A stretch of 24,000 nucleotides of DNA from Candidatus Electrothrix laxa (GTDB taxonomy: Bacteria > Desulfobacterota > Desulfobulbia > Desulfobulbales > Desulfobulbaceae), in NCBI GenBank assembly GCA_942492895.1, contig OW818652.1:1510637-1534636 (forward strand). The letters run 5' to 3'. Of this stretch, positions 5,101 through 20,392 are shown piece after piece; position 1 is the stretch's first letter; each line of letters begins with the position of its first letter. A model generated the notes under the pieces. That model was not told the DNA's origin, made no database searches, and was given only the letters and a program-made list of their open reading frames with translations. The position numbers and the translations under genes are program-made.

Positions 5101-6336
5101 ATGAACAACATACTCGTATTTCAACATCTCAAAAAAGCATTTCTGGTTGCTCTCTGGTTCTGTTTTCTCACCTTTCCCATCATGGTTATCAAGGTGAACC
5201 CCTACGAAGAAACCGTTGTCTGGCGTTGGCAAAATATGCTCTATGTAGGGCTGTCCAGTTTTGTTCTGTACCTGTTGAGCCGAGCCTTTCTGGGCTGGAA
5301 GGTAGCGCAGGAAGAAAAGAAAAAAATACGCGGGGTTCCGAAAAATACCCCGGAAAAAGAAAAAAAGAATTGGCAGCACATCCTGCTTAACGAACCAAAA
5401 GTATTTTTACCGGTTCTTGGAGTGCTTTTGCTGATTCTTTCTACTTTTCCGCTGTACCTTTCCACCTATCAGATCAACATCATGATCACAGCCCTGATGT
5501 ACGTAGTCTTGGGGCTGGGCCTCAACATCGTTGTCGGGGTGGCAGGTCTGCTTGATCTGGGCTATGTGGCCTTTTATGCGGTCGGGGCTTATACCTATGC
5601 CCTGCTCAACCTCCATTTTGGGATCGGCTTCTGGACAGCCCTGCCCATCGGCGGGTTGCTGGCTGCCTGTTTCGGCATTTTGCTCGGCTTTCCGGTGCTG
5701 CGTTTGCGAGGCGACTATCTGGCTATTGTCACCTTGGGTTTCGGAGAAATTATCCGCTTGGTGCTAGAAAACTGGTCCGATTTTTCCCAAGGTCCTAGCG
5801 GAATATCCAATATCCCTAGGCCCGGCTTATTCGGCATGGAGATGACGCTTGATCAATCTATTAGCTATCTCTATTATCTGATGATCGCCCTGGTGATTTT
5901 TACCGTTTTCATGGTGAACCGGCTGCAAAATTCCCGGATCGGTCGCGCCTGGTTTGCCCTGCGGGAAGATGAGATTGCCTGCCAGGCTATGGGGATCGAT
6001 AAAACCAAAACCAAGTTAACTGCTTTTTCCCTGGGTGCCTTTTGGGCGGGCATGGTCGGGGTAATATTTGCCGCCAAAACGACCTTTGTTAATCCTTCTT
6101 CCTTTACCTTTCTCGAATCCGCTATTATCCTCTGCATTGTGGTGCTGGGCGGTATGGGCTCTATTATCGGAGTGATCATTGCTGCTTTAGTCCTGATGCT
6201 GCTGCCGGAATACCTGCGGGCCTTTGCCGATTATCGCATGTTGGTCTTCGGAGCGACCTTGGTTATCATGATGGTCTTTCGGCCCAAGGGGCTGATCTCC
6301 ACCGTGCGGCGGACGTACAGGAGAAACACCCTATGA
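5101..6336 (+). CDS. livM: Branched-chain amino acid ABC transporter permease LivM
   Basis: Near-identical blocks to E. coli LivM as I recall it: LGLNIVVGVAGLLDLGYVAFYAVGAY, GFPVLRLRGDYLAIVTLGFGEIIR, GRAWFALREDEIAC, VLGGMGS. The ORF opens at GTG 5014; I prefer ATG 5101 (MNNILVF...), but no clear SD supports either, so the start is uncertain. Confidence 0.9.
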   Translation: MNNILVFQHLKKAFLVALWFCFLTFPIMVIKVNPYEETVVWRWQNMLYVGLSSFVLYLLSRAFLGWKVAQEEKKKIRGVPKNTPEKEKKNWQHILLNEPKVFLPVLGVLLLILSTFPLYLSTYQINIMITALMYVVLGLGLNIVVGVAGLLDLGYVAFYAVGAYTYALLNLHFGIGFWTALPIGGLLAACFGILLGFPVLRLRGDYLAIVTLGFGEIIRLVLENWSDFSQGPSGISNIPRPGLFGMEMTLDQSISYLYYLMIALVIFTVFMVNRLQNSRIGRAWFALREDEIACQAMGIDKTKTKLTAFSLGAFWAGMVGVIFAAKTTFVNPSSFTFLESAIILCIVVLGGMGSIIGVIIAALVLMLLPEYLRAFADYRMLVFGATLVIMMVFRPKGLISTVRRTYRRNTL

Positions 6337-6959
6337 AGTCGTTTTCAAAATGGACGATTGAAGAGGTGGAAGAAACTTTTCATATTGTTCAGCAAAAACA
6401 GGACCAACAGCTTGAACAGTGGATGAGCCCGGTTCCTGCTCCTTCAGATATCGAAAAGCAGCAATTGCAGCTGCTTCAGGAAAAATTGCTGGATAACGTA
6501 TGGGACTGGAATGAAGAGGAACTCAAGGTTTATTTCATTATTCCGCTTCTTGAGCTGATTCGTTTTGAGGAAACAGACTGCAAACCCTTTCTTTCCCGAG
6601 AACTTACGATGATCGTTGAAGACGACACTGTCTCCGGTATTGTCGCTTTCATGGTGGCCTCTGGAAGACGTTCTCCAAAAAAACCGTATTTTTTTATCCA
6701 TGAATACAAGAAAGAACATGATTCCTCAAACGACCCCCTCGGTCAGCTGATGATCGAAATGGTCACGGCCCGGCATCTGAATGCTGACAGTCATCCTGTG
6801 TACGGGGCCTATGTTATGGGGCGTTATTGGCATTTTGTCGTGCTCCATGAACAATGCTATGCTGTCCATACTGGGCTTAATGCTGCCAATGAAGAACTGC
6901 TGCATATCTTTGGTGTGCTCCAAAACAGCAAGGAAATTATCGGAGAGTGGAGTCGGTAA
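6333..6959 (+). CDS. PD-(D/E)XK-like (HsdR N-terminal-like) small protein, 208 aa
   Basis: The core WNEEELKVYFIIPLLELIRF ... SGIVAFMVA ... PYFFIHEYKK ... QLMIEMVTA ... YGAYVMGRYWHFVVL matches the layout of restriction-endonuclease-like HsdR_N domain proteins: helix, strand with D, hydrophobic-E-x-K, then G-x-x-W-x-F. AGGAG lies 9 nt upstream and the ATG overlaps the livM stop. Confidence 0.65.
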   Translation: MKSFSKWTIEEVEETFHIVQQKQDQQLEQWMSPVPAPSDIEKQQLQLLQEKLLDNVWDWNEEELKVYFIIPLLELIRFEETDCKPFLSRELTMIVEDDTVSGIVAFMVASGRRSPKKPYFFIHEYKKEHDSSNDPLGQLMIEMVTARHLNADSHPVYGAYVMGRYWHFVVLHEQCYAVHTGLNAANEELLHIFGVLQNSKEIIGEWSR

Positions 6960-7149
6960 TGCCCTTGCGCTTCAAGCGGGAGTTTGGGTACAGGAGCAAT
7001 TGCAGAACTTACAGGGTTGGTGAAGAGCTTAAGAGGTTGCAACAGGAGCAGGGTCTGATAAAAGGGTGAATCGGCCTCGTTGCCGGTTTAGCTATATTCA
7101 GCAACTGGGAAGATGTGAGCATGCAAACTCTCTTTTTCAATGAGTTATT

Positions 7150-8151
7150 ATGACATTAGTTGCGGCATTTAGTGCCAACGGTATACCAGCCTTAATTGGT
7201 GATATAGCTCTCACAAGAGATGCAATACGCTCTTTAAGAAAAAAAGCATATATCATCACGCAAAATCTGGCTATTGCATGGACAGGTCACGCTATTGTTG
7301 CCAAATTGGTTGTCTCCGAGATGAGAGAAGCCTTTTCGGCATTGCATCCAACGAAAGTAGATGTTGAACGTTTTTTTACCCGATATCAAGTCGAAGATTT
7401 CGGGGCGTTACACACTAACTTTATAGGATGGCTAGTTGACGATGAGGCTCATTGCTTTCGATGGAATTGCCTTTTTCCAAATGAGGTGTTCTATGAAACA
7501 AGCTTTACTGATGGTTCTGGAGAGGAATATTTGAAAAACCTACGGAGAGAGCGAGAGCAATGGGAGAAGGGAGGTTCTGGATTACCCTCTGAAGAGCAAA
7601 CTGTTCTATCTCTTATCAACGAAGTAGCGCATGCGCGATTCAGAGAAACTCTTGACAAGAATACTTGGGACATAAGTTTTGGCGGATCTTATGATATTAT
7701 TGTGTACCTAGCAGGCCGGTTTCGCTATGTTAGGTCAGTGATTTATATTGGTTGGGATTACCATTGGAACTCCAATACAGGAACTGGAAAATTACAACAA
7801 GCACCTCTGCTTATAAAGCATAATTGCATGGGTGAGTTTTCGGTTATTCAAGAGGCGTTGCATGGTTCTTATTACAATGGGAAAACGACTAACTACTTAA
7901 GTCGTCCAGTCTATGACAATATGGATCAAGCTGATCTTTCTCAATTTCCTCTAACCATTGATTCAGATTACTACGCAAACTATTTTATCTTTCGCGAAAA
8001 TGGCAAGGTGCCTTTCAAGATACTGCTGACTGTTCAAAAGATAACCAAGGAAGGACCACTAAGGATGAAAAGGAAGGATGGTGCCTATTTTTTGCATTAC
8101 GATACCAACTTACTTGATGATATCTATAGAAAACATACGACGGCCTGTTAA
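7150..8151 (+). CDS. HslV/proteasome-beta-like Ntn-hydrolase domain (about residues 1-195) fused to an uncharacterised C-terminal domain of about 140 aa
   Basis: Starts Met-Thr (MTLVAAFSANGIPALIGDIALT...). In Thr1 numbering it has N9-G10, G16-D17, K30-K31 followed by a hydrophobic strand and AWTG, D120-G121-S122-G123, and later FGGSYDIIVYLAGRF. E. coli HslV as I recall it has T1, N9-G10, G16-D17, K32-K33, G123-S124-G125. The gene is visibly A+T-rich. Confidence 0.6.
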   Translation: MTLVAAFSANGIPALIGDIALTRDAIRSLRKKAYIITQNLAIAWTGHAIVAKLVVSEMREAFSALHPTKVDVERFFTRYQVEDFGALHTNFIGWLVDDEAHCFRWNCLFPNEVFYETSFTDGSGEEYLKNLRREREQWEKGGSGLPSEEQTVLSLINEVAHARFRETLDKNTWDISFGGSYDIIVYLAGRFRYVRSVIYIGWDYHWNSNTGTGKLQQAPLLIKHNCMGEFSVIQEALHGSYYNGKTTNYLSRPVYDNMDQADLSQFPLTIDSDYYANYFIFRENGKVPFKILLTVQKITKEGPLRMKRKDGAYFLHYDTNLLDDIYRKHTTAC

Positions 8152-13016: not shown

Positions 13017-13065
13017 AATCTCTCCTCAACAGAAGTAATAAAACTTGCAACAGCTTGCTGAATCC

Positions 13066-14412
13066 ATGGAAAAAAAGAAGGTCAAAATTTTAATTGTAGA
13101 CGATGAGCAGGTCCATAGGTATATGCTCTATTCCATGCTGACTGAATGGGGCTGGCCCTGTCAGGAAGCGGATGACGGCAAAACAGCAGTTGAAGCGGTA
13201 CGACAAGGGCCCTTTGATGTTATCCTCCTGGATGTCTGTATGGAACCTATGGACGGTCTGGAGGCTCTGCGCAAGATACACTCCATTAATCCATCGATTC
13301 CGGTGGTTATGATGACTGCCTATTCTTCAATAGACTCGGCTGTTGAGGCAATTAAACTGGGTGCCCATGATTATCTTACAAAACCCATAGATTTTGAACG
13401 ACTTCGTCAAACCCTGGAAGTTGCTATGGGGCATCGGCAGCAACCGGACAAAGCTGAGCTCTCTGAAAAACCTTTTGGCGAGGACGGACGAATTATTGGT
13501 TCTTCAACTCCAATGCAAACCCTCTGGGAAATGGTCGTCCAAGTTGCTCCCACAGAGGCTACAGTCCTCGTCACCGGTGACTCAGGAACCGGCAAGGAGC
13601 TGGTCGCCTCAGCCTTGCATTATAAAAGCCACCGCAGAAAAGGCCCCTTTATCAAGGTGAACTGTGCAGCTCTTTCTGAAACCCTGCTGGAGTCAGAACT
13701 TTTCGGTCATGAAAAAGGAGCCTTCACAGGGGCAGACCGCCGCCGCGAGGGCTGTTTTGTCCAAGCCCAAGAGGGCACGCTCTTTCTTGACGAGATAGGC
13801 GAAACAACCCCGGCTATGCAGGCAAAGCTCTTACGAGTCCTTCAGGAGCACGAACTCCAGCGAGTCGGTGGTCAAGAGATCATTACTGTTGATGTGCGCA
13901 TTGTCACGGCAACCAACCGGGACCTAGAAGCAGAGGTGAAAGCAGGAAATTTCCGGGAAGATCTTTATTACCGACTCAATGTTGTGGCTCTGGACATGCC
14001 TTCTTTATGTGACCGTGACGGTGACATTCCCTTGCTCGCTGATTTTTTTGTGCGCAATTTTGCCAAAAGAAACAAACGAGAGGTACAAGGGATCACTCCT
14101 GAGTGCATGGATATCTTGAATCGCTACCCCTGGCCAGGCAATGTTCGGGAGCTGGAGAACGCCATAGAACGGGGCGTGATCCTGATGCGGGGAGATTACC
14201 TTGACCTTGACAGCCTGCCTATGGCTGTTCAGAATTGGGCCGGAATGAATCCGAAAAAAGAAGAAGAGCAACCGTCCACTCTGAGAGAAGCTGAGCGTGT
14301 TCTCATCCTGAAGACTCTTGAGGAAACCAACGGAAACCGCAGCGAGGCCGCCCGGCGCTTACAGATTACCCGGAAGACTCTGCTGAATAAACTGAAACGG
14401 TATGGTGTGTAA
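13066..14412 (+). CDS. Sigma-54-dependent response regulator (NtrC/AtoC family enhancer-binding protein)
   Basis: Receiver domain (KILIVDDE ... DVILLDVCMEPMDG ... MMTAY ... KP). AAA+ domain with Walker A GDSGTGKE, the sigma-54 contact loop GAFTGA, and Walker B LFLDEIG. C-terminal Fis-type HTH NGNRSEAARRLQITRKTLLNKLKRYG. Start taken at the first ATG; the ORF opens at TTG 13045. Confidence 0.92.
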   Translation: MEKKKVKILIVDDEQVHRYMLYSMLTEWGWPCQEADDGKTAVEAVRQGPFDVILLDVCMEPMDGLEALRKIHSINPSIPVVMMTAYSSIDSAVEAIKLGAHDYLTKPIDFERLRQTLEVAMGHRQQPDKAELSEKPFGEDGRIIGSSTPMQTLWEMVVQVAPTEATVLVTGDSGTGKELVASALHYKSHRRKGPFIKVNCAALSETLLESELFGHEKGAFTGADRRREGCFVQAQEGTLFLDEIGETTPAMQAKLLRVLQEHELQRVGGQEIITVDVRIVTATNRDLEAEVKAGNFREDLYYRLNVVALDMPSLCDRDGDIPLLADFFVRNFAKRNKREVQGITPECMDILNRYPWPGNVRELENAIERGVILMRGDYLDLDSLPMAVQNWAGMNPKKEEEQPSTLREAERVLILKTLEETNGNRSEAARRLQITRKTLLNKLKRYGV

Positions 14413-14492: not shown

Positions 14493-15110
14493 TCATTTAT
14501 TCTCTCCTTCCCCCTCTCGCTCATCATAGAGAATCAAAAAAACCAGCAACCCGATAAAAAGCCCCACATGAATAATAAGCAGTAGAAGTGCAGTGGAAAA
14601 AGAAGCTGCAAAGCCTTTGCTCTGGAGTTTGAGATCATTACGTGCGAAAAAGTTTTTCTGAAACGTTTTTTTATCAGCTTCGCTCGGCACGTATAAGGTG
14701 TAGGAGTCTGACTCGTTTTTAAACGGTAGGGCAACGCCATGCCGCTGATAAATAAGTCGGGCGGCGATCCTTCGTTTATTACCACTGACTGCTGTAACCA
14801 AATACTCCGCCAACTCCTGCTGTATGCCCCTGTTTACTCCTTCTTCGATCTGTTGTTGTACCGTGAAACTGCCGCGAATGACAACCAACAGGAAAGAAAT
14901 ATTGACAATAAATATCCCAATAAAAAGCAAGGCAAAATATTTTTTTTTCTCCTGATTCGCAACCTGCCAAAAACTGACCGGCAAAAAAACGGAAAGCAGT
15001 AATGCCAAAGGAAATTGGATCGCATCCTGTTTAACCAATTGAGGAAAGAAACAATAACCAAGCAAAATAATCATCCAGATGAAACCTGTTATTCCGGGTA
15101 TTTTTTTCAT
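14493..15110 (-). CDS. Hypothetical integral membrane protein (about 205 aa, about 4 TM segments)
   Basis: Hydrophobic segments: GITGFIWMIILLGYCFF, PLALLLSVFLPVSFW, YFALLFIGIFIVNISFLLVVI, STALLLLIIHVGLFIGLLVFLIL. The ATG at 15110 is preferred over TTG 15122. No family recognised. Confidence 0.7.
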   Translation of the reverse strand: MKKIPGITGFIWMIILLGYCFFPQLVKQDAIQFPLALLLSVFLPVSFWQVANQEKKKYFALLFIGIFIVNISFLLVVIRGSFTVQQQIEEGVNRGIQQELAEYLVTAVSGNKRRIAARLIYQRHGVALPFKNESDSYTLYVPSEADKKTFQKNFFARNDLKLQSKGFAASFSTALLLLIIHVGLFIGLLVFLILYDEREGEGENK

Positions 15111-15135
15111 ATTTTTAAACAATTTAAATGTAAGA

Positions 15136-15266: not shown

Positions 15267-15282
15267 TGGCGCTACAGTGGCT
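15267..15282 (+). promoter_or_regulatory. Candidate sigma-54 (-24/-12) promoter upstream of the Cys-rich repeat gene
   Basis: TGGCGCTACAGTGGCT compared with the consensus TGGCAC-N5-TTGCW: the GG and GC dinucleotides are at the correct spacing, with two mismatches in the flanking positions. It lies about 150 nt upstream of the ATG at 15431, and an NtrC-type activator gene is about 0.9 kb away. Confidence 0.4.
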
Positions 15283-15333
15283 CGTTGACTTTTTTATGTT
15301 GCCAGATAATCACTGAGCTTATATATATTAAAA

Positions 15334-15349
15334 GTAAAAAAAATTTTAC
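15334..15349. promoter_or_regulatory. Palindrome GTAAAA-AAAA-TTTTAC, copy 2
   Basis: Same half-sites as 15136..15148 but with a 4-nt spacer. Located between the candidate sigma-54 promoter and the Cys-rich gene start. Confidence 0.3.
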
Positions 15350-15430
15350 CGGCTTTATTCAGGTAGAATGCAGTTCGTCCGAAAATACGGGCAATGAGAT
15401 AAATTTCACAGAACAAGGAGAGTGAGAACC

Positions 15431-16537
15431 ATGAAACTGAAAGTGTTGGCACAGGCTGCGATTTTAGTCGTGCTGTCGGCGGGTGTCGCCTTTGCCGGAG
15501 GCAGAGCCCTCACCTGCGACGACTGCTCAGATGAATGCTTGGAAAATCCTTACAGCAAAGGATGTCCTTCTGTTTGCAAAGATCCGGAATGTCAAGCATC
15601 CTGCGACGACTGCTCAGATGAATGCAAAAAAAATCCCTATGGTGCGGATTGCCCGGATATCTGCAGAGATGTAACCTGCCAGTCCTGCGAAGACTGTACG
15701 GATGAATGTACAATCAATCCCTACGGCGAATCTTGTCCAGATATATGCCGTGACATAAAATGTTACAGCTGTGACGATTGTTCTGTAGAATGTATAGAAA
15801 ATCCTGAAGGACAGGATTGCCCGCCTGTATGTGATGAGTTGGGTTGCAATATCTGTGACAAATTCCCGACTGACTGTCCTGTATCCTGCAAGGAAGACTC
15901 TCAGGACCAGGAAAACTGCCCGACTGAATGTCAGGATGTACCGGAAGAATGTTTATCCGAAGAACCGGTCGGACCGGAACCTGTCATCACTTGTGACGAC
16001 TGCCCGCCTGAATGTGAAGACAATCCCGATGCGGAAGACTGCCCTGCCGAATGCCAGGAGCTTGACTGCTACGCCGGATCTATGAGCCCTCTTCGTTTTA
16101 TTGGCGACATCGGTTATTTGCGTCTTTCCGATCCGGCTGATTACCTCTTTGCTCGCATGGGTGTAGAGTATAGCCCCTATGCCGGAACCTCTTATGAGAA
16201 TATTTCTTATTTAGCTATGGTAGGTGTTGCTCCAAAGTTAGACGGTTCTGACGGTGACGACGCGTTGTTAATTGATGCCTTTGCTCAGTACAACTGGTCT
16301 GATGCCTTTGACGGCTTCATCGGACTCGGACTCGGTGCTTGGATAAGTGCCGGAGATGATGATATCGACTCTGAAGACACTGATCTGGACATTTTAGCCA
16401 ATATCGGTGCCCGCGTCTACGGCGATCCCGACACATTCAATGTTTCGATCTTCCTGGAAGCTCGAAATGCTGTTGACGAACTGAGTGACATCTCACAATA
16501 CGGACGTTTTGGTATCGGACTGCGCTTCCAGCATTAA
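15431..16537 (+). CDS. Secreted acidic Cys-rich tandem-repeat protein (36 Cys) with a beta-rich C-terminal domain, possibly an outer-membrane anchor
   Basis: AAGGAG (15415..15420) lies 10 nt upstream of the ATG at 15431. Sec-type signal peptide MKLKVLAQAAILVVLSAGVAFA with no twin-arginine. Six units of C-x2-C-x3-C-x8-C-x3-C-x4-C. The C-terminal ~155 aa has alternating hydrophobic strands and Asp-rich loops and ends GRFGIGLRFQH. Confidence 0.85.
   Translation: MKLKVLAQAAILVVLSAGVAFAGGRALTCDDCSDECLENPYSKGCPSVCKDPECQASCDDCSDECKKNPYGADCPDICRDVTCQSCEDCTDECTINPYGESCPDICRDIKCYSCDDCSVECIENPEGQDCPPVCDELGCNICDKFPTDCPVSCKEDSQDQENCPTECQDVPEECLSEEPVGPEPVITCDDCPPECEDNPDAEDCPAECQELDCYAGSMSPLRFIGDIGYLRLSDPADYLFARMGVEYSPYAGTSYENISYLAMVGVAPKLDGSDGDDALLIDAFAQYNWSDAFDGFIGLGLGAWISAGDDDIDSEDTDLDILANIGARVYGDPDTFNVSIFLEARNAVDELSDISQYGRFGIGLRFQH
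15515..16069 (+). repeat. In-frame tandem coding repeats of 87, 84, 84 and 84 nt, then one degenerate unit and one further unit
   Basis: Unit starts (first Cys codon) are at 15515, 15602, 15686, 15770, 15854 (degenerate) and 15992. Units 1 and 2 share an identical 26-nt stretch, cctgcgacgactgctcagatgaatgc (15513..15538 and 15600..15625). Peptide unit: CDDCSDEC-x-ENPY-x3-CP-x2-C-x-D-x2-C. Confidence 0.9.
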
Positions 16538-16616
16538 TGGAAACCAGCACTCATTGACCGCTAGCTAGCACTCGCAAGTCGTAACAGCGAGAACAGCGGG
16601 TCAAGCTTTTCGAAAA

Positions 16617-16649
16617 GGGCACAGGGGATTTCTCCTGTGCCCTTTTTTT
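16617..16649 (+). terminator. Rho-independent terminator of the Cys-rich protein gene
   Basis: GGGCACAGG (16617..16625) pairs with CCTGTGCCC (16634..16642) and is followed by T7 (16643..16649). A 5' A-tract could allow bidirectional function. Confidence 0.8.
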
Positions 16650-16855
16650 ATTGTGCTGCCTGTTGCGAAAGAGAATAAATTTCAGGAGGCTTCTCCAAAA
16701 ACATTTACGGAGAACAACTTCGCGGTCAATTTTAAGGAATCAAGAAAGGAAGAGGCAAAACAAGGGGGGAAACCGGTAAGCGAGCACCTCGGTTAATAGC
16801 GGACAACGGTTATGCAGCAGCAACACCGTTGCCCTCCATCAATCAACTGTGGTTC

Positions 16856-17041
16856 CTAGCTCTCGGTAACGGTAATGGCAGCTGATTCGCAAACTTCCAC
16901 GCAGGTTTCGCAACCCAGACACTCGTCGTCGTTGACCGGCTCTGACTTACCATCTTCCATTTCAAATACTGCTGCTGGGCAGGAACCGACACACTCTTCA
17001 CAACCTGTACATTTATCTTTATCTACAACTACTTCAAACAT
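16856..17041 (-). CDS. fdx: Small 2x[4Fe-4S]-type ferredoxin (61 aa)
   Basis: [22 protein letters not shown] ... [12 protein letters not shown] carries two C-x2-C-x2-C-x3-C clusters. GGAG lies about 7 nt upstream of the ATG at 17041. The 24-codon upstream extension in the ORF track is unlikely to be translated. Confidence 0.9.
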
Positions 17042-17135
17042 TGTCTTTCTCCTTAGTAGCGGCTCTCTAACGAGCCCTTTTATAAAAGTAACCTCACGAT
17101 TAATTGTGTACAAATAACATGTACTGACTTGGGCA

Positions 17136-17163: not shown

Positions 17164-17484
17164 TATTTTTTTTACATGATCCGCTCAGTCAAATATTTCC
17201 CTGCGTCCAGCCATCATTCCTTACAAACAGCCTAAAAAAGTAATCATCAAACAATACAGAAAAAATAGCATTCCCTCCCTTCTTTTTTACTCTTTCCCCA
17301 AACGGACACAACAAGAAAATAAGCACGAGCTTAATAAGCAGAAAGATACACCCGAATGGCTTTTTTCCCTTACGAAAACGGCTCATCATTTACATTTTTC
17401 ACCTACAGCTTGACAAGATCTCCTTTTTATAGTAAACAGGCTTTCAGTGTTACAAAAAATAAAAAAATATTACTTCTATTCATC

Positions 17485-18087
17485 ATGCATATTTCAGAAG
17501 GTATTCTTTCGGCACCGGTTTTGATAAGCGGAGGGGTCGTTGCAGCGATCGGCACCTATATCGGGTTAAAAAAAATTGACATTGAAGAGATCATGCCCGT
17601 TGCTCTTCTCTCTTCTGCCTTTTTCGTGGCAGGACTCGTCCATGTTCCTCTTGGACCGGGATCTGTACATTTAATGCTGATCGGCCTGCTCGGAGTAATG
17701 CTGGGCTGGGCCGCTTTCCCGGCAATCCTTATCGCTCTTTTTCTTCAGGCCCTGTTTTTTCAATTTGGCGGTTTTTCTGTCCTCGGAGTGAACACCGTAA
17801 CAATGTCTGTTCCGGCTCTCTGCTGTTATTATCTAACCCGCCCTTGGATGGATAACCCAAAAACACGATCTGCGGCCGCATTTTTTGCAGGCTTCTCGGC
17901 GATCCTACTGGCCTCGCTGCTAACATCCTGCGCCTTGGCCCTTACCGATACCGGCTTTACAACTGCTGCGCAACTCATTATTGCGGCCAATATACCGGTC
18001 ATGATTATTGAAGGATGCATCACCATGTTCACTGTTGGTTTTCTAGCCAAGGTCCAACCAGAAATTTTACACCTCGAATACGCATGA
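17485..18087 (+). CDS. cbiM: ECF-type Ni/Co transporter substrate-capture component CbiM/NikM (200 aa)
   Basis: The canonical N-terminus MHISEGIL (Met-His metal-ligand motif) fixes the start at 17485. The protein is polytopic and hydrophobic, with HVPLGPGSVHLMLIGLLGVMLG. The 43-codon upstream extension in the ORF track is rejected. Confidence 0.9.
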   Translation: MHISEGILSAPVLISGGVVAAIGTYIGLKKIDIEEIMPVALLSSAFFVAGLVHVPLGPGSVHLMLIGLLGVMLGWAAFPAILIALFLQALFFQFGGFSVLGVNTVTMSVPALCCYYLTRPWMDNPKTRSAAAFFAGFSAILLASLLTSCALALTDTGFTTAAQLIIAANIPVMIIEGCITMFTVGFLAKVQPEILHLEYA

Positions 18088-18698
18088 ATCGGTCTCGTTT
18101 CCTGACAATGACAGCAATCTTCTTTGCCGGAGTATTTTTGTTCTTTGCCCTGCCGACTCAAGCGCATAAACTCAATGTTTTTTCCTGGACCGGTGAAAAT
18201 AAAATCTACGGAGAGGCATTTTTCAGCGGGGGACGTAAGGCCAAAAATGTACCAGTTCATGTCCAAAATGCCGAATCACTTGCCTCGCTGCTGACAACGC
18301 AGACCGATGAAGAAGGCAAATTCCAATTCACCCCGCCCCAACAGGCTGTTCAGCAAAATCAGGGCCTTTTGATCACAGTGGATACAGGTGATGGACATCG
18401 CGGTGAATGGCTTTTGGAGGCAGATGAATATCTTATTGAAGACTCAGCCCCTCCTCCTTCATCGCAAACAAAACAGCCCGGATCAGAACTAGTAACGCTG
18501 GAAGATATACGCCAAATCGTGCTCCAGGAACTAAATAGGGAGTTAATACCTATCAAGCGACATTTAGCTGAAGATCGCGAAAAGGAGGCTAACCCACGAG
18601 ATATAATTGGCGGAATCGGCTGTATTCTCGGACTGGCAGGCATCTTTGCCTGGTTCCAAGCAAAAAAAAAGAAGAAGAAAGCTTCGGCAGACGGATAA
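18084..18698 (+). CDS. Bitopic membrane protein with a periplasmic beta-sandwich (CarboxypepD_reg/transthyretin-like) loop; NikL-like accessory component
   Basis: ATGA overlap with the cbiM stop. N-terminal TM or signal FLTMTAIFFAGVFLFFALPTQA. HKLNVFSWTGENKIYGEAFFSGGRKAKNVPVHVQN...DEEGKFQFTPP resembles a carboxypeptidase-regulatory-like fold. C-terminal TM IIGGIGCILGLAGIFAWF plus a poly-Lys tail. The TM-loop-TM topology mirrors CbiN/NikN. Confidence 0.65.
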   Translation: MNRSRFLTMTAIFFAGVFLFFALPTQAHKLNVFSWTGENKIYGEAFFSGGRKAKNVPVHVQNAESLASLLTTQTDEEGKFQFTPPQQAVQQNQGLLITVDTGDGHRGEWLLEADEYLIEDSAPPPSSQTKQPGSELVTLEDIRQIVLQELNRELIPIKRHLAEDREKEANPRDIIGGIGCILGLAGIFAWFQAKKKKKKASADG

Positions 18699-18773
18699 GG
18701 TGTCCCCTGTCGAAAGGAAAAGGATCTTACGGTCCAAAAAATAATATCTGATGAAAAAAAGGAGTATTTCACG

Positions 18774-19541
18774 ATGAAGATCAAAGCTGTTGCTGCAACC
18801 GCACTCTTTCTCGCCTGCATGACAGGTGAGGCCCTTGCTCATTTCGGGATGGTTATCCCCTCGGACAACATCTTAACACCGAAAAAAAAGAGCGTTGAAC
18901 TGGACCTCTCTTTTTCCCATCCTTTTGAGATAATCGGTATGGATCTGGTCAAACCGAAAGAATTCTTTATGGTAGCTGGCGACAAGAAGACTGATCTGCT
19001 CCCGACTCTCAAATCCGCGAAGGTCATGGATCATGCTGCCTGGACAACCAAGGTGCCCATCAAACGCCCTGGGGTGTATACCTTTGTGATGGAGCCGACC
19101 CCATATTGGGAACCGGCTGAGGATGTATCCATCATCCATTACACCAAGACGCTGATCGCTGCCTTTGGTGACGATCAAGGATGGGATGAGCCAGTTGGGA
19201 TAGCAACGGAAATCGTGCCCTTGACTCGTCCTTTTGGCAACTATGCAGGCAACAGCTTTTCCGGGCAGGTTCTGCTCAAGGGCAAACCGGTTCCCGGCGC
19301 AGAGGTTGAAGTGGAGCTGTATAATAAAGACAAAAAACTCTCCGCCCCAAGCGATTACCACGTCACCCAGGTCGTCAAGGCTGATGAGAACGGGGTATTT
19401 ACCTTTTCCTGTCCCCAGGCGGGCTGGTGGGGTTTTGCCGCTCTGAATGAGGCCGACTATACCATCAAGGACCCGGAAGGTAACGAAAAAGGCGTTGAGC
19501 TTGGTGCCGTACTCTGGACCTATCTGGACGCGTACAAATAA
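18774..19541 (+). CDS. Periplasmic DUF4198 (COG5266, CbiK/NikK-like) Ni/Co-binding component
   Basis: AAAGGAG lies 9 nt upstream. Signal peptide MKIKAVAATALFLACMTGEALA, then a mature N-terminal His (HFGMVIPS). The beta-rich sequence with GKPVPGAEVEVELYN...DENGVFTFSCPQAGWW is typical of DUF4198 proteins found in nik/cbi clusters. Confidence 0.8.
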   Translation: MKIKAVAATALFLACMTGEALAHFGMVIPSDNILTPKKKSVELDLSFSHPFEIIGMDLVKPKEFFMVAGDKKTDLLPTLKSAKVMDHAAWTTKVPIKRPGVYTFVMEPTPYWEPAEDVSIIHYTKTLIAAFGDDQGWDEPVGIATEIVPLTRPFGNYAGNSFSGQVLLKGKPVPGAEVEVELYNKDKKLSAPSDYHVTQVVKADENGVFTFSCPQAGWWGFAALNEADYTIKDPEGNEKGVELGAVLWTYLDAYK

Positions 19542-19550
19542 AAAGAAAAT

Positions 19551-19574
19551 CCCCCCCCCCTCTGGGGGGGGGGG
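19551..19574. repeat. Inverted homopolymer hairpin C10-TCT-G11
   Basis: Read directly: 19551..19560 is ten C, 19561..19563 is TCT, 19564..19574 is eleven G. Flanking AAAT/ATTT extends the stem. It sits 10 nt after the DUF4198 gene stop and 60 nt before cbiQ. Confidence 0.95.
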
Positions 19575-19633
19575 ATTTCTACGATACAATAAAATCTGTT
19601 GAATCTGTCGGTACAGTTATGTTATGAAACCGC

Positions 19634-20392
19634 ATGACTTTTGAACAGTTCAGTGACGGCACTTCATTTCTGCACCGGGCAGACCCTAAGGGAAAACTGA
19701 TCAGCACGGGGGTGCTCAGCCTAGTCATCGCCCTGAGTCAAACCTGGGGCACTGCCCTGCTTGGCTTTCTGCTTACCTTTACTCTTGTGCTTACAGCACA
19801 TTTATCATGGAGAAAGCTTTTTCATCGCCTGCTGATTGTTAACAGCTTCAACCTTCTGCTTTGCCTTATTCTACCCCTGACCTACACCGCTGGCAAAAAT
19901 ATTTCGTTTATCGGGATCAACCTGAACAGCACCGGTTTTTTTCTCGCTCTCCTGATCACGGTTAAATCCAATGCTGTTATTCTTCTCTTTATCAGCCTGC
20001 TTGCTACCTCAACCGCTGCACAGCTCGGCCACGGCCTTCAGCAGCTGCGCCTGTCACCAAAGCTCTGCCTGCTTCTTCTCTTTTCCTATCGTTATATAGC
20101 GCTTATTCAGCAGGAACTGTTCCGTTTGCAACGGGCTGCCAGCCTGCGCTGCTTTCAGCCAAGAACAAATCTGCATACCTATAAGACCTACAGCTATATG
20201 CTGGGCATGATGCTGGTCCGCAGCTGGAACCGAGCAGCACGGGTGCAACAGGCTATGGAGTTACGCGGGTTTTCTGGACAATTCCACAGCCTGCACGACG
20301 CTGGCGGCATGCAGAAAAGCGACCTATTGCTATCAGCAACCCTGCTGTTGGCTGGTGTGGGATTAATGGTGATTGAAATCCTATCTATATAA
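19634..20392 (+). CDS. cbiQ: ECF transporter transmembrane (T) component CbiQ/NikQ
   Basis: 252 aa, hydrophobic. Has the typical N-terminus (SFLHRADPKGKLIS) and the C-terminal Ala-Arg-Gly-type coupling region (AASLRCF ... AMELRGF). Confidence 0.88.
   Translation: MTFEQFSDGTSFLHRADPKGKLISTGVLSLVIALSQTWGTALLGFLLTFTLVLTAHLSWRKLFHRLLIVNSFNLLLCLILPLTYTAGKNISFIGINLNSTGFFLALLITVKSNAVILLFISLLATSTAAQLGHGLQQLRLSPKLCLLLLFSYRYIALIQQELFRLQRAASLRCFQPRTNLHTYKTYSYMLGMMLVRSWNRAARVQQAMELRGFSGQFHSLHDAGGMQKSDLLLSATLLLAGVGLMVIEILSI

What the first reader, a model, noticed from the sequence alone, without database searches (positions are those of the whole stretch)
15431..16537. Secreted 36-cysteine tandem-repeat protein with a beta-rich, Asp-loop C-terminal domain
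After a Sec-type signal peptide, the protein has four near-perfect 28-29-residue units, one degenerate unit and a sixth unit. Each unit carries six Cys in the pattern C-x2-C-x3-C-x8-C-P-x2-C-x4-C, embedded in Asp/Glu-rich sequence (CDDCSDEC-x-ENPYG-x2-CPDICRD-x2-C). The DNA periodicity is exact (87, 84, 84, 84 nt), and a 26-nt identical stretch between units 1 and 2 points to recent expansion or gene conversion. The C-terminal ~155 aa alternates hydrophobic strands with poly-Asp loops and ends ...GIGLRFQH, which is compatible with a small beta-barrel anchor but not a textbook one. I do not recognise this architecture. The lack of a Tat motif argues against a cytoplasmically inserted Fe-S cofactor. 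The domain is therefore either a disulfide-knotted structural module or a periplasmic or surface thiolate metal-binding array. Its proximity to a Ni/Co importer about 1 kb downstream, a ferredoxin and a candidate sigma-54 promoter makes a metal-handling or redox role an attractive hypothesis, though an unproven one.
Basis: partly seen in the sequence, partly recalled or inferred. Interest (0 to 1): 0.75.

Follow-up and report, generated by a model that had tools for sequence, protein, structure and literature searches.

The report
Cable-bacteria-specific cysteine-array outer-membrane protein
This gene encodes a secreted protein found only in electricity-conducting cable bacteria: a small outer-membrane barrel that most likely holds a very acidic array of 30-36 conserved cysteines in the periplasm, where these bacteria build their nickel-sulphur wires, so it is an untested candidate part of that unidentified machinery.

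Summary
ORF 15431-16537 encodes a 368-aa protein with a Sec signal peptide and 36 Cys. There are five modules with identical spacing, C-x2-C-x3-C-x8-C-P-x2-C-x4-C, and one degenerate module. The C-terminal 150 aa are modelled confidently as an 8-stranded OmpA/NspA/OmpX-like outer-membrane barrel.

The window comes from a Candidatus Electrothrix (cable bacterium) genome. The Cys-rich form occurs only in cable bacteria, in 16 species of Electrothrix and Electronema. All 30 core Cys are invariant in the 13 species aligned.

The barrel belongs to an uncharacterised family restricted to Desulfobulbales. Its other members are Cys-poor and carry a different N-terminal domain. The repeat domain has no sequence relative outside cable bacteria, no Pfam, NCBIfam or PDB sequence match, and no Foldseek PDB match.

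- The array is ancient, not recent.
- The sigma-54 promoter is not supported.
- Adjacency to nikMLKQ holds in every Electrothrix but in no Electronema, and the gene is its own transcription unit.

Best reading: an outer-membrane-anchored, periplasm-facing, thiol-rich acidic rod that belongs to the cable-bacterial envelope. Whether its Cys form disulfides, bind Ni or Cu, or link to the Ni-S fibres is untested. I found no paper describing it.

The parts
15299..15327 (+). Conserved sigma-70-like promoter candidate: TTGCCA (15299-15304), 17-nt spacer, TATATA (15322-15327), preceded by a T-run
   Evidence: This block is invariant or nearly so in seven Electrothrix upstream regions, including YB6 and E. 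gigas, whose further-upstream genes differ. The hexamers were read directly from the sequence. The consensus scanner did not list it because the second hexamer ends in A.
15415..15420 (+). Shine-Dalgarno sequence AAGGAG, 10 nt before the ATG
   Evidence: Read from the sequence. Conserved in the orthologous loci.
15431..15496 (+). Sec-type signal peptide, aa 1-22, with predicted cleavage at AFA|GG
   Evidence: Translation: a Lys-rich n-region, a hydrophobic core and A-x-A at -3/-1. There is no RR motif and no lipobox Cys. The segment is conserved in the orthologs. The cleavage site is inferred, not predicted by a dedicated tool.
15509..15847 (+). Four regular 6-Cys modules: aa 27-54, 56-83, 84-111 and 112-139, each C-x2-C-x3-C-x8-C-P-x2-C-x4-C
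   Evidence: Regex on the translation. Direct-repeat family D1 with spacing 87/84/84 nt. All Cys are invariant in 13 species. AlphaFold2 models short helices with pLDDT about 80-90.
15848..15958 (+). Degenerate fifth module, aa 140-176, with six Cys at 142, 149, 153, 163, 167 and 174 (CDKFPxDCPxSC...CPxEC...C)
   Evidence: These six Cys are also invariant across both genera. Together with units 1-4 they form the conserved 30-Cys core.
15959..16075 (+). Variable membrane-proximal part: a Pro/Glu linker (aa 177-185), the sixth regular module (aa 186-213) and a short connector to the barrel
   Evidence: This part varies among orthologs. The sixth module is absent in E. aestuarii, YB6, Electronema PJ and TJ, and UBA5173. 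The part is lengthened by a 40-60 aa Pro/Glu-rich insert in the E. gigas clade. One MAG has an extra duplicated block and 49 Cys.
16076..16534 (+). C-terminal 8-stranded outer-membrane beta-barrel, aa 216-368. Strands are at 221-232, 236-247, 258-272, 278-290, 294-306, 318-331, 337-347 and 359-367. The connecting loops are Asp-rich, and the C-terminus is GIGLRFQH.
   Evidence: AlphaFold2 gives pLDDT mostly >90. Foldseek against PDB gives OmpA TM domain 1bxw E 5.7e-5, NspA 1p4t 6e-5, OprF-N, PagL, OmpX and OmpW, all with probability 1.00. Most predicted strands, clearest in strands 3-8, alternate polar and hydrophobic faces. The domain is shared with the family restricted to Desulfobulbales.
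16612..16655 (+). Intrinsic terminator: a 16-bp G+C-rich stem followed by a T-run, about 75 nt after the stop codon
   Evidence: This makes the gene a monocistronic unit.
16856..17113 (-). Context, not part of the protein: a 2x[4Fe-4S] ferredoxin gene, convergent with the Cys-array gene. The likely true start is the Met at 17041.
   Evidence: Pfam Fer4 families. Retained next to the ortholog in all Electrothrix loci examined.
17356..20392 (+). Context: ECF-type Ni/Co importer genes nikM (MHISEG start near 17488), nikL (18015-18698), nikK/DUF4198 (18774-19541) and nikQ (19634-20392)
   Evidence: Pfam CbiM, DUF4198 and CbiQ. NCBIfam NF058648 NikL, 159 bits against a cut-off of 100. Synteny in Electrothrix only. 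This is the operon described by Hiralal et al. 2024 (PMC11247825).

Best explanation
The gene makes a monocistronic, probably well-expressed envelope protein that is specific to cable bacteria.

Proposed steps:
1. The protein is exported by Sec.
2. Its C-terminal 150 aa fold into an 8-stranded OmpA/OmpX-type barrel in the outer membrane.
3. Both ends of such barrels lie on the periplasmic side. The N-terminal 190-aa domain therefore hangs into the periplasm directly under the outer membrane.
4. That domain is a string of 28-aa mini-modules. Each is modelled as a short helical hairpin carrying a twin C-x3-C pair (C32-x3-C36 and C45-x3-C49 in unit 1) plus two flanking Cys.
5. The modules would be held rigid by thiol chemistry, either disulfide staples or metal-thiolate bridges. 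The domain is extremely acidic (net charge -43; no His, Met or Trp).
6. The distal 30-Cys core is invariant, while the membrane-proximal part varies in length like a spacer.

In cable bacteria, the space under the outer membrane holds the ridge compartments with the Ni-S conductive fibres. I therefore read the protein as an outer-membrane-to-periplasm tether or scaffold of this specialised envelope, whose cysteine head contacts or cross-links periplasmic material.

Shown here: the sequence features, the predicted barrel fold, the phyletic restriction and the Cys invariance.

Inferred: the periplasmic orientation (from the general topology rule for even-stranded outer-membrane barrels), the hairpin stapling, and any contact with the fibres.
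For: Barrel:
- AlphaFold2 pLDDT >90 for eight strands.
- Top Foldseek PDB hits are all 8-stranded outer-membrane barrels.
- Most predicted strands are amphipathic.
- The C-terminal motif is GxGxRF-x-[F/Y/H].

Modules:
- Identical Cys spacing in five units.
- Short helices at pLDDT about 80-90.
- 30 of 30 core Cys invariant in 13 species.
- The units are positional orthologs between genera, most clearly units 1, 3 and 4.

Specificity:
- An exhaustive HMMER search of 1.84 billion representatives gave only 80 hits, nearly all through the barrel.
- Forms with 30-57 Cys occur only in Electrothrix, Electronema and three cable-type MAGs. Homologs in Desulfofustis, Desulforhopalus, Desulfotalea and Desulfopila have at most 11 Cys and no modules.

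Variable spacer.

Own transcription unit: a conserved promoter-like block and a strong terminator.

Literature:
- The fibres lie in the periplasm under outer-membrane ridges, their protein composition is unknown, and homology searches found no periplasmic Ni-protein candidate (PMC11976967).
- Fibre skeletons hold much more S than the Ni complex accounts for, and Cys cross-links to Ni(ett) oligomers were modelled (PMC13534509 and bioRxiv 10.1101/2025.10.10.681601).
Against: - There is no expression, localisation or biochemical data.
- Orientation is inferred from a rule, not shown.
- I could not obtain model coordinates, so the Cys-Cys geometry (disulfide or metal site) is unknown.
- pTM is only 0.47, so the arrangement of the two domains is unreliable.
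- An outer-membrane-anchored 190-aa domain can reach only a few nm, so it cannot be the bulk of a 50-nm fibre.
- SDS extraction, which yields conductive fibre skeletons, removes membranes. An outer-membrane protein would stay only if it were cross-linked.
- The C-terminal residue here is His rather than the usual Phe, Tyr or Trp.
- The paralogous family also exists in non-cable Desulfobulbales, so the barrel scaffold itself has a general, unknown envelope role.
Confidence: 0.4

Rival explanations
1. Periplasmic metal-thiolate array. The reduced Cys modules bind soft or borderline metal ions (Ni2+, Cu+, Zn2+ or Co2+). The acidic residues attract the cations. The protein would then do one of three things: buffer or store metal entering through the outer membrane; hand Ni to the NikMLKQ importer or to fibre assembly; or itself be part of the Ni/S or Cu/S material.
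For: - The domain has 19% Cys and 28% Asp+Glu, with a net charge of -43.
- A Sec signal with no Tat motif means any metal must be loaded after export.
- The gene-ferredoxin-nik adjacency survives rearrangement of both flanks in every Electrothrix, including YB6 and E. gigas.
- Cable bacteria place more than 95% of an unusually large Ni quota in the periplasm, and a Cu/S entity in the junction cartwheels (PMC13534509; preprint).
- No periplasmic Ni-binding candidate is known (PMC11976967).
Against: - The nik adjacency is absent in all Electronema loci, and the genes are not co-transcribed.
- The domain has no His, which is common in biological Ni sites.
- Cys counts per module and in total are even, and the twin C-x3-C layout fits disulfide-stapled hairpins equally well.
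- Published spectroscopy assigns the fibre Ni to dithiolene ligands, not to Cys.
- There is no similarity to metallothioneins, Csp or any metal-binding family.
Confidence: 0.3
2. An ordinary disulfide-rich structural stalk. The modules are oxidised, Ca2+-stabilised rigid spacers, comparable in principle to LDL-receptor class A or EGF-like modules. They set the distance between the outer membrane and peptidoglycan, with no link to metals or conduction. On this reading the protein is simply a lineage-specific variant of a Desulfobulbales envelope tether.
For: - Six Cys per module and even totals.
- Helical mini-folds.
- Paralogs replace the Cys region with other repetitive spacers (VPGPERIVEK repeats, or short linkers) between an N-terminal domain and the same barrel. 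This points to a generic spacer role.
- The proximal part varies in length among orthologs.
- The only PDB sequence matches, all sub-threshold, are small disulfide-rich peptides.
Against: - A mere spacer would not be expected to keep 30 of 30 Cys and many flanking residues invariant across two genera while the adjacent spacer varies freely.
- The form is restricted to the one lineage with a unique periplasmic structure.
- The filaments span sulfidic, anoxic sediment, where periplasmic disulfides are at risk. This point rests on general knowledge and was not tested.
Confidence: 0.2
3. Surface-exposed or sulfur-handling protein. Either the Cys domain is displayed outside the cell as an adhesin or S-layer anchor, or its thiols carry persulfide or polysulfide sulfur during sulfide oxidation.
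For: - Cable bacteria oxidise sulfide and have a surface layer (literature).
- A Cys array could carry sulfane sulfur.
- The predicted barrel loops are very acidic.
Against: - An 8-stranded barrel is too narrow for autotransporter-type secretion, which uses 12 or more strands, and no autotransporter or secretion domain was found.
- There is no similarity to SoxYZ, Sud, rhodanese or DsrE-type carriers.
- No sulfur-metabolism genes lie nearby.
Confidence: 0.1

Closest known systems
Eight-stranded outer-membrane beta-barrels (OmpA transmembrane domain, NspA, OmpX, OprF N-domain, PagL, OmpW)
   Same: The predicted fold of aa 216-368 matches: eight antiparallel amphipathic strands, a charged interior network and a C-terminal aromatic-containing beta-signal-like motif. 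Foldseek probability is 1.00, with target-normalised TM-score (TMt) about 0.6 for most of the top hits and 0.43-0.44 for OmpW.
   Different: Sequence identity is only 10-16%, and no Pfam OMP family is matched. All loops are short and Asp-rich. The extra domain is N-terminal to the barrel, whereas OmpA and OprF carry theirs C-terminally. The terminal residue here is His.
Uncharacterised Desulfobulbales barrel family (N-terminal ~140-aa domain + variable linker + the same barrel; some members are annotated 'IMCp domain-containing protein' or 'outer membrane protein beta-barrel domain-containing protein')
   Same: The C-terminal barrel is homologous: 40-55% identity, and D226, G228, R242, W304, E343, R345 and R365 are invariant. 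Intermediate forms exist with the N-domain plus Cys modules plus the barrel (P0029, P0030, P0032, P0038; in Electronema PJ such a gene lies in tandem with the ortholog).
   Different: The window protein lacks the N-terminal domain and has the regular 6-Cys array. The other members have at most 11 Cys and also occur in non-cable genera. The family itself has no Pfam or PDB relatives.
Twin C-x3-C / helical-hairpin disulfide mini-proteins (small Tim proteins, CS-alpha/alpha toxins, designed HHH peptides)
   Same: There are two C-x3-C pairs on consecutive short helices within each 28-aa module. A designed disulfide-stapled HHH peptide is the best PDB sequence match, though not significant (E 0.07).
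   Different: There is no detectable homology. Each module has two further Cys, the modules are concatenated, and pairing was not verified. The resemblance comes from the motif and from memory, and is not a tested membership.
Cys-rich metal-binding proteins (metallothioneins, Csp copper-storage proteins, Cys/Asp/Glu-rich Ni-binding tails such as that of SlyD)
   Same: High Cys density with CxxC and CxxxC motifs, and in Csp Cys on helices. Like Csp1, the protein is exported. The organism handles unusual amounts of Ni and Cu outside the cytoplasm.
   Different: There is no sequence or profile similarity. The protein uses Sec, not Tat. Extreme acidity is atypical of metallothioneins. No His is present. 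Metal binding was not tested.
Outer-membrane-to-cell-wall tethers and periplasmic rulers (Lpp, OmpA C-domain, beta-barrel proteins linked to peptidoglycan through their N-termini in Alphaproteobacteria)
   Same: An outer-membrane anchor plus a periplasmic extension whose length varies between lineages.
   Different: No peptidoglycan-binding domain was detected, and the chemistry of attachment is unknown. This is an analogy drawn from general knowledge.

Membership tests
8-stranded OmpA/OmpX-like outer-membrane barrel (structural class) | Eight antiparallel transmembrane beta-strands forming a closed barrel | tested here: met
   AlphaFold2 models eight strands at pLDDT mostly >90. The top Foldseek PDB hits are OmpA, NspA, OprF-N, PagL, OmpX and OmpW, with E from 6e-5 to 1e-3 and probability 1.00. 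This is a prediction, not an experiment.
8-stranded OmpA/OmpX-like outer-membrane barrel (structural class) | Alternating lipid-facing hydrophobic and lumen-facing polar residues in the strands | tested here: met
   In strands 3-8 the mean Kyte-Doolittle values are +1.6 to +3.5 for one face and -0.2 to -2.7 for the other; strand 2 is weaker (+1.15 and -0.85) and strand 1 shows no contrast (+0.82 and +0.62).
8-stranded OmpA/OmpX-like outer-membrane barrel (structural class) | C-terminal beta-signal ending in an aromatic residue (usually Phe) | tested here: inconclusive
   The window protein ends ...GIGLRFQH. Electronema orthologs and the paralogs end RFKF or RFRF, while Electrothrix orthologs end in H, Y, R, Q or L.
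Pfam OmpA_membrane / OMP_b-brl sequence families | Profile HMM match above the gathering score | tested here: not met
   No Pfam family matched at E up to 10 and no NCBIfam family.
Type V autotransporters | A 12-stranded (or larger) C-terminal translocator barrel with a pore-spanning linker | tested here: not met
   The model has eight strands. Autotransporter barrels appear only as weak, low-TM hits (TMt 0.22-0.26). No Pfam autotransporter domain was found.
c-type cytochromes | CxxCH haem-binding motif | tested here: not met
   There is no His anywhere in aa 23-215.
Ferredoxin-type [4Fe-4S] proteins | CxxCxxCxxxCP motif, and Tat export for a periplasmic location | tested here: not met
   The spacing is C-x2-C-x3-C-x8-CP. 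There is no Fer4 Pfam hit and no twin-arginine in the signal peptide.
Metallothionein / Csp copper-storage families | Sequence or profile similarity to the family, and demonstrated metal-thiolate clusters | tested here: not met
   There are no Pfam, NCBIfam or PDB profile matches. Metal binding cannot be tested with these tools.
Bacterial lipoproteins | Lipobox L-[AS]-[GA]-C at the end of the signal peptide | tested here: not met
   The signal peptide ends VAFA|GGR, and the first Cys is at residue 29.
Desulfobulbales N-domain-linker-barrel family (unnamed) | Homologous C-terminal barrel with the invariant D/G/R/W/E/R residues | tested here: met
   The barrel shows 40-55% identity in 60 or more proteins. 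There are 20 invariant columns in a 67-sequence alignment.
Desulfobulbales N-domain-linker-barrel family (unnamed) | N-terminal ~140-aa domain (motif ...FAVPLxCGNLAL) | tested here: not met
   The domain is absent from the window protein and from all its orthologs. It is present in paralogs and in the intermediate forms P0029, P0030 and P0038.
Components of the cable-bacterial conductive fibre or envelope | Physical presence in fibre skeletons, ridges or junctions | not testable with these tools
   No proteomic or localisation data are accessible. The papers held state that the fibre proteins are unidentified.

The most novel reading that the evidence does not exclude
The protein is a previously unrecognised component of the cable-bacterial conduction apparatus. 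Its invariant 30-Cys head, held under the outer membrane, would ligate, cap or template the Ni-S nanoribbons (or the Cu/S material of the junction cartwheels) and fasten them to the ridge compartment. That would make it the first identified protein of this machinery and the founder of a new class of periplasmic Ni/Cu-thiolate proteins.
Probability: 0.2. Interest if true: 0.95.

Novelty: new variant of a known kind. Interest (0 to 1): 0.7.

Why it matters
Cable bacteria conduct electrons over centimetres through periplasmic Ni-S fibres. The proteins that build, sheath or anchor these fibres are still unknown. The most recent comparative-genomics study (PMC11976967) states that homology searches could not find a periplasmic Ni-protein candidate and would miss a new family.

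This gene is the kind of candidate such searches miss:
- it is restricted to cable bacteria and present in both genera;
- it is exported and most likely faces the compartment that holds the fibres (orientation inferred);
- it has 30 invariant cysteines;
- in Electrothrix it sits next to the Ni importer.

Even if it proves to be purely structural, it gives a concrete target that can be cloned and used to raise antibodies. It could be followed up by proteomics of fibre skeletons, immunolocalisation and metal-binding assays. It is also an example of how a lineage-specific envelope protein arose by remodelling the linker of an older barrel family.

Tried and rejected
1. Known-family assignment. 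Pfam and NCBIfam at E up to 10, and PDB by phmmer, gave nothing.
2. Profile searches with the 150-aa core array (A5) and the 29-aa unit (A6) against PDB. Only insignificant hits appeared: STE50, poxvirus OPG143, a designed peptide and an LDLR EGF peptide, with E from 0.05 to 3.
3. Profile search of the 5.8-billion-protein set. Only cable-bacterial fragments were found.
4. The one non-cable protein that matched the repeats, P0128 (918 aa, E 1e-7). It is a different 58-aa repeat with a partly similar Cys spacing. I treat it as compositional or convergent similarity, not homology.
6. Sigma-54 promoter. There were 116 matches against 113 expected by chance. The best upstream site, 15267-15282, has a non-conserved GG. 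Rejected.
7. Riboswitch or other RNA element upstream or downstream. Rfam gave nothing. The 5'UTR fold is not better than shuffled sequence (z = -1.3).
8. Recent repeat expansion. Rejected on positional orthology of the units. The 26-nt identity is confined to this genome and its closest relative, which fits a local micro-conversion.
9. A conserved functional partner gene. The divergent 209-aa membrane protein at 14493-15122 is absent in YB6, E. gigas and Electronema.
10. Exact-sequence look-up of the window protein. It is not in the collection.
11. Literature. I found no paper in the held library that mentions this protein or a Cys-rich outer-membrane protein in cable bacteria. Kjeldsen et al. 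2019 was not retrievable under the PMC id I tried.
Full report
**What is there**

ORF 15431-16537 (+) is a well-formed gene. It has an AAGGAG Shine-Dalgarno sequence 10 nt before the ATG, and it encodes 368 aa. The product has four parts:
- a Sec-type signal peptide (MKLKVLAQAAILVVLSAGVAFA|GG), with no twin-arginine and no lipobox;
- five modules with exactly the spacing C-x2-C-x3-C-x8-C-P-x2-C-x4-C, starting at Cys 29, 58, 86, 114 and 188;
- a degenerate six-Cys module (Cys 142-174);
- a C-terminal, Cys-free 150-aa region.

There are 36 Cys in total. The repeat domain (aa 23-215) is 19% Cys, 15% Asp, 13% Glu and 11% Pro. Its net charge is -43, and it has no His, Met or Trp.

At the DNA level the units recur every 87, 84 and 84 nt. 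They are only 55-68% identical, so Tandem Repeats Finder does not call them. A strong intrinsic terminator follows at 16612-16655.

**Structure**

AlphaFold2 on a 67-sequence alignment gave a mean pLDDT of 82. Residues 221-367 form eight beta-strands at pLDDT mostly above 90.

Foldseek against the PDB put 8-stranded outer-membrane barrels on top: OmpA TM domain, NspA, OprF-N, PagL, OmpX and OmpW, with E from 6e-5 to 1e-3 and probability 1.00. Most predicted strands, clearest in strands 3-8, alternate a hydrophobic and a polar face.

The connecting loops are short and Asp-rich. These Asp positions are conserved in the whole family, so they are a property of the barrel and not of the cable-bacterial form.

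The repeat region is modelled as strings of short helices at pLDDT about 80-90. In each unit a C-x3-C pair lies on each of two consecutive helices (C32/C36 and C45/C49). This is the layout of twin-Cx3C helical hairpins. I could not obtain coordinates, so the Cys pairing is not verified.

A repeat-only model found no PDB fold match at all. Two further structure libraries were unavailable.

**Who has it**

All named relatives are cable bacteria: Candidatus Electrothrix and Candidatus Electronema, including the older labels 'Desulfobulbus sp. TB/F3'. The best match is 91% identical, from an Electrothrix MAG, so the window is from an Electrothrix genome.

An exhaustive HMMER search of 1.84 billion representative proteins gave only 80 hits, and almost all align only to the barrel.

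A scan of one genome per GTDB species found 49 loci. I extracted the ORFs from these loci:
- Forms with 30-57 Cys and the regular modules occur only in Electrothrix, Electronema and three 'Desulfobulbaceae' MAGs of the same type, 16 species in all.
- Homologs in Desulfofustis glycolicus, Desulforhopalus singaporensis, Desulfotalea, Desulfopila and Desulfocapsaceae have at most 11 Cys and no modules.

Those Cys-poor members have a different architecture: a signal peptide, a conserved ~140-aa N-terminal domain, a variable linker (for example VPGPERIVEK repeats, which explains the 'IMCp' annotations) and the same barrel.

Intermediates exist with the N-domain, Cys modules and the barrel: P0029, P0030, P0032 and P0038. 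In Electronema PJ such a gene lies in tandem with the ortholog.

The simplest history has three steps. A Desulfobulbales envelope protein acquired Cys modules in its linker in the cable-bacterial ancestor. The gene then duplicated. One copy lost the N-domain.

The whole family has no Pfam or PDB relatives.

**Conservation**

In 13 species from both genera, with overall identity down to about 60%, all 30 Cys of units 1-4 plus the degenerate unit are invariant.

Unit n of the window protein is most similar to unit n of the Electronema orthologs (units 1, 3 and 4 consistently, unit 2 in part of the comparisons), not to its own neighbours.

The 26-nt identity between units 1 and 2 is real, but it is confined to this genome and its closest relative. 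That fits a local micro-conversion.

The membrane-proximal part is variable:
- unit 6 is missing in several species;
- the E. gigas clade has a 40-60 aa Pro/Glu-rich insert;
- one MAG has an extra duplicated block.

This gives a constant distal 'head' on a variable spacer.

**Genomic context**

In every Electrothrix locus examined the order is Cys-array gene, then ferredoxin on the opposite strand, then nikM-nikL-nikK-nikQ. This holds even in YB6 and E. gigas, where the upstream genes differ. In E. gigas, nikM and nikQ are not detected in the locus either. This is the nik locus described by Hiralal et al. 2024, whose synteny figure legend lists 'fd' and 'hyp.' neighbours (PMC11247825).

In none of the Electronema loci is a nik gene within 6 kb. 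There the gene is instead paired divergently with an orphan SdhC-type (b558 family) cytochrome b membrane protein, in eight Electronema-type genomes (nine fetched loci).

The gene also has its own conserved promoter-like block (TTGCCA-17-TATATA) and its own terminator. The nik association is therefore suggestive synteny at genus level, not an operon.

The sigma-54 promoter idea fails. Matches are at chance level, and the best upstream site is not conserved. No Rfam element is present.

**How it most likely works**

- *Shown or predicted here:* Sec export, an 8-stranded outer-membrane barrel, and an N-terminal Cys array.
- *From established knowledge:* both termini of even-stranded outer-membrane barrels such as OmpA, OmpX, NspA and PagL are periplasmic, and eight strands are too few for autotransporter-type secretion. 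The Cys array should therefore hang into the periplasm directly beneath the outer membrane.
- *Inference:* the modules are rigidified by thiol chemistry and form an acidic rod. Its invariant head interacts with something periplasmic that is specific to cable bacteria.

The obvious candidate for that partner is the ridge compartment with its Ni-S fibres, or the Cu/S cartwheel. The literature is relevant here:
- It reports that the fibre proteins are unknown and that homology searches found no periplasmic Ni-protein candidate (PMC11976967).
- It reports that more than 95% of a very large cellular Ni quota sits in the fibres (PMC13534509).
- It reports a fibre-skeleton S/Ni ratio of about 11.6, against 3.0-4.6 for the Ni complex, with the remainder attributed to protein sulphur (preprint).
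- It models Ni(ett) oligomers capped by S-S links to cysteine residues.

None of this shows that the present protein is involved.

I rank the readings as follows:
- an outer-membrane-anchored tether or scaffold of the specialised envelope, 0.4;
- a periplasmic metal-thiolate array, 0.3;
- an ordinary disulfide-rich spacer unrelated to conduction, 0.2;
- a surface-exposed or sulfur-carrier role, 0.1.

**Comparison with known systems**

The barrel belongs structurally to the OmpA/OmpX class, but it matches none of the Pfam sequence families.

The repeat domain fails the defining features of c-type cytochromes (no CxxCH, no His), ferredoxins (wrong spacing, no Tat signal), lipoproteins and autotransporters. 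It has no profile similarity to metallothioneins or Csp proteins.

It resembles twin-Cx3C hairpins and Cys-rich acidic extracellular modules in motif only.

**Novelty and verdict**

I found no paper in the held library that describes this protein.

It is a real, conserved, lineage-specific gene with a known type of anchor and a new Cys-array domain. I class it as a new variant of a known kind, with a 0.2 chance of being something much more important: a first identified protein of the conduction apparatus.

Interest is 0.7. The score rests mainly on the fact that the gene turns an open question, which proteins build or hold the wires, into direct experiments.

Noticed in passing
L001 7084-7722 (-); L004 3368-4003 (-); L019 3622-4344 (-); also L005, L012, L013, L014, L020, L021: In eight Electronema-type genomes (nine fetched loci), the Cys-array gene is paired divergently with an orphan ~212-aa SdhC-type cytochrome b. 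It matches TIGR02046 (b558 family) at 115 bits against a cut-off of 96, and PDB 9lay_C at 9e-15. No sdhA or sdhB lies adjacent, and the pairing persists although the other flank differs between loci. No homolog is present in the Electrothrix window.
   Followed up: partly
window 15290-15400: The upstream region of the gene is very strongly conserved across Electrothrix. It holds a T-run, TTGCCA-17-TATATA, an A-run and TTTTACC, then GAATGCAGTTCGTCCG...CGGGCAATGAGATAAA in a ~100-nt leader. There is no Rfam match, and the predicted fold is not better than shuffled sequence.
   Followed up: partly
L015 (E. gigas) 5965-7248; proteins P0010-P0012: Orthologs in the giant cable bacterium E. gigas and its relatives carry a 40-60 aa Pro/Glu-rich insert (EEIDIPIPEEYPIDPI...) between the Cys core and the barrel, giving a longer spacer. 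I did not examine whether this correlates with envelope dimensions.
   Followed up: no
Proteins P0039, P0047, P0048 (Electrothrix paralogs); loci L031, L038, L044, L048: The Cys-poor paralogs in cable bacteria carry long VPGPERIVEK-type tandem repeats between the N-terminal domain and the barrel. One aligned member weakly matches the alveolin-like Pfam family IMCp (E 0.002). Repeat number differs between species, as expected of a spacer of adjustable length.
   Followed up: partly
window 17356-18087 and 18015-18698: The mechanical nikM ORF is over-extended. The CbiM domain starts at residue 45 with MHISEG, the usual N-terminus of NikM/CbiM, so the real start is probably 17488. The nikL ORF, as listed, overlaps the end of nikM by 73 nt. 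No nikO ATPase gene follows nikQ in the window.
   Followed up: partly
window 14493-15122 (-): The divergent neighbour is a 209-aa protein with hydrophobic, probably membrane-spanning segments and no family match. It is conserved next to the gene in the E. aarhusensis/aestuarii group (63-88% identity) but absent from this position in YB6, E. gigas and Electronema.
   Followed up: partly
window 13045-14412 (+): An NtrC-type sigma-54-dependent response regulator (receiver domain, AAA+ domain and Fis-type HTH) lies 1 kb upstream. No convincing sigma-54 promoter was found anywhere nearby, so its target is unknown.
   Followed up: partly
protein P0128 (918 aa, source unknown): This protein has about sixteen near-identical 58-aa repeats containing C-C-x11-C-x3-C-x8-CP-x2-C. 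It was the only non-cable hit to the Cys array (E 1e-7). It is probably convergent, and its origin was not determined.
   Followed up: no
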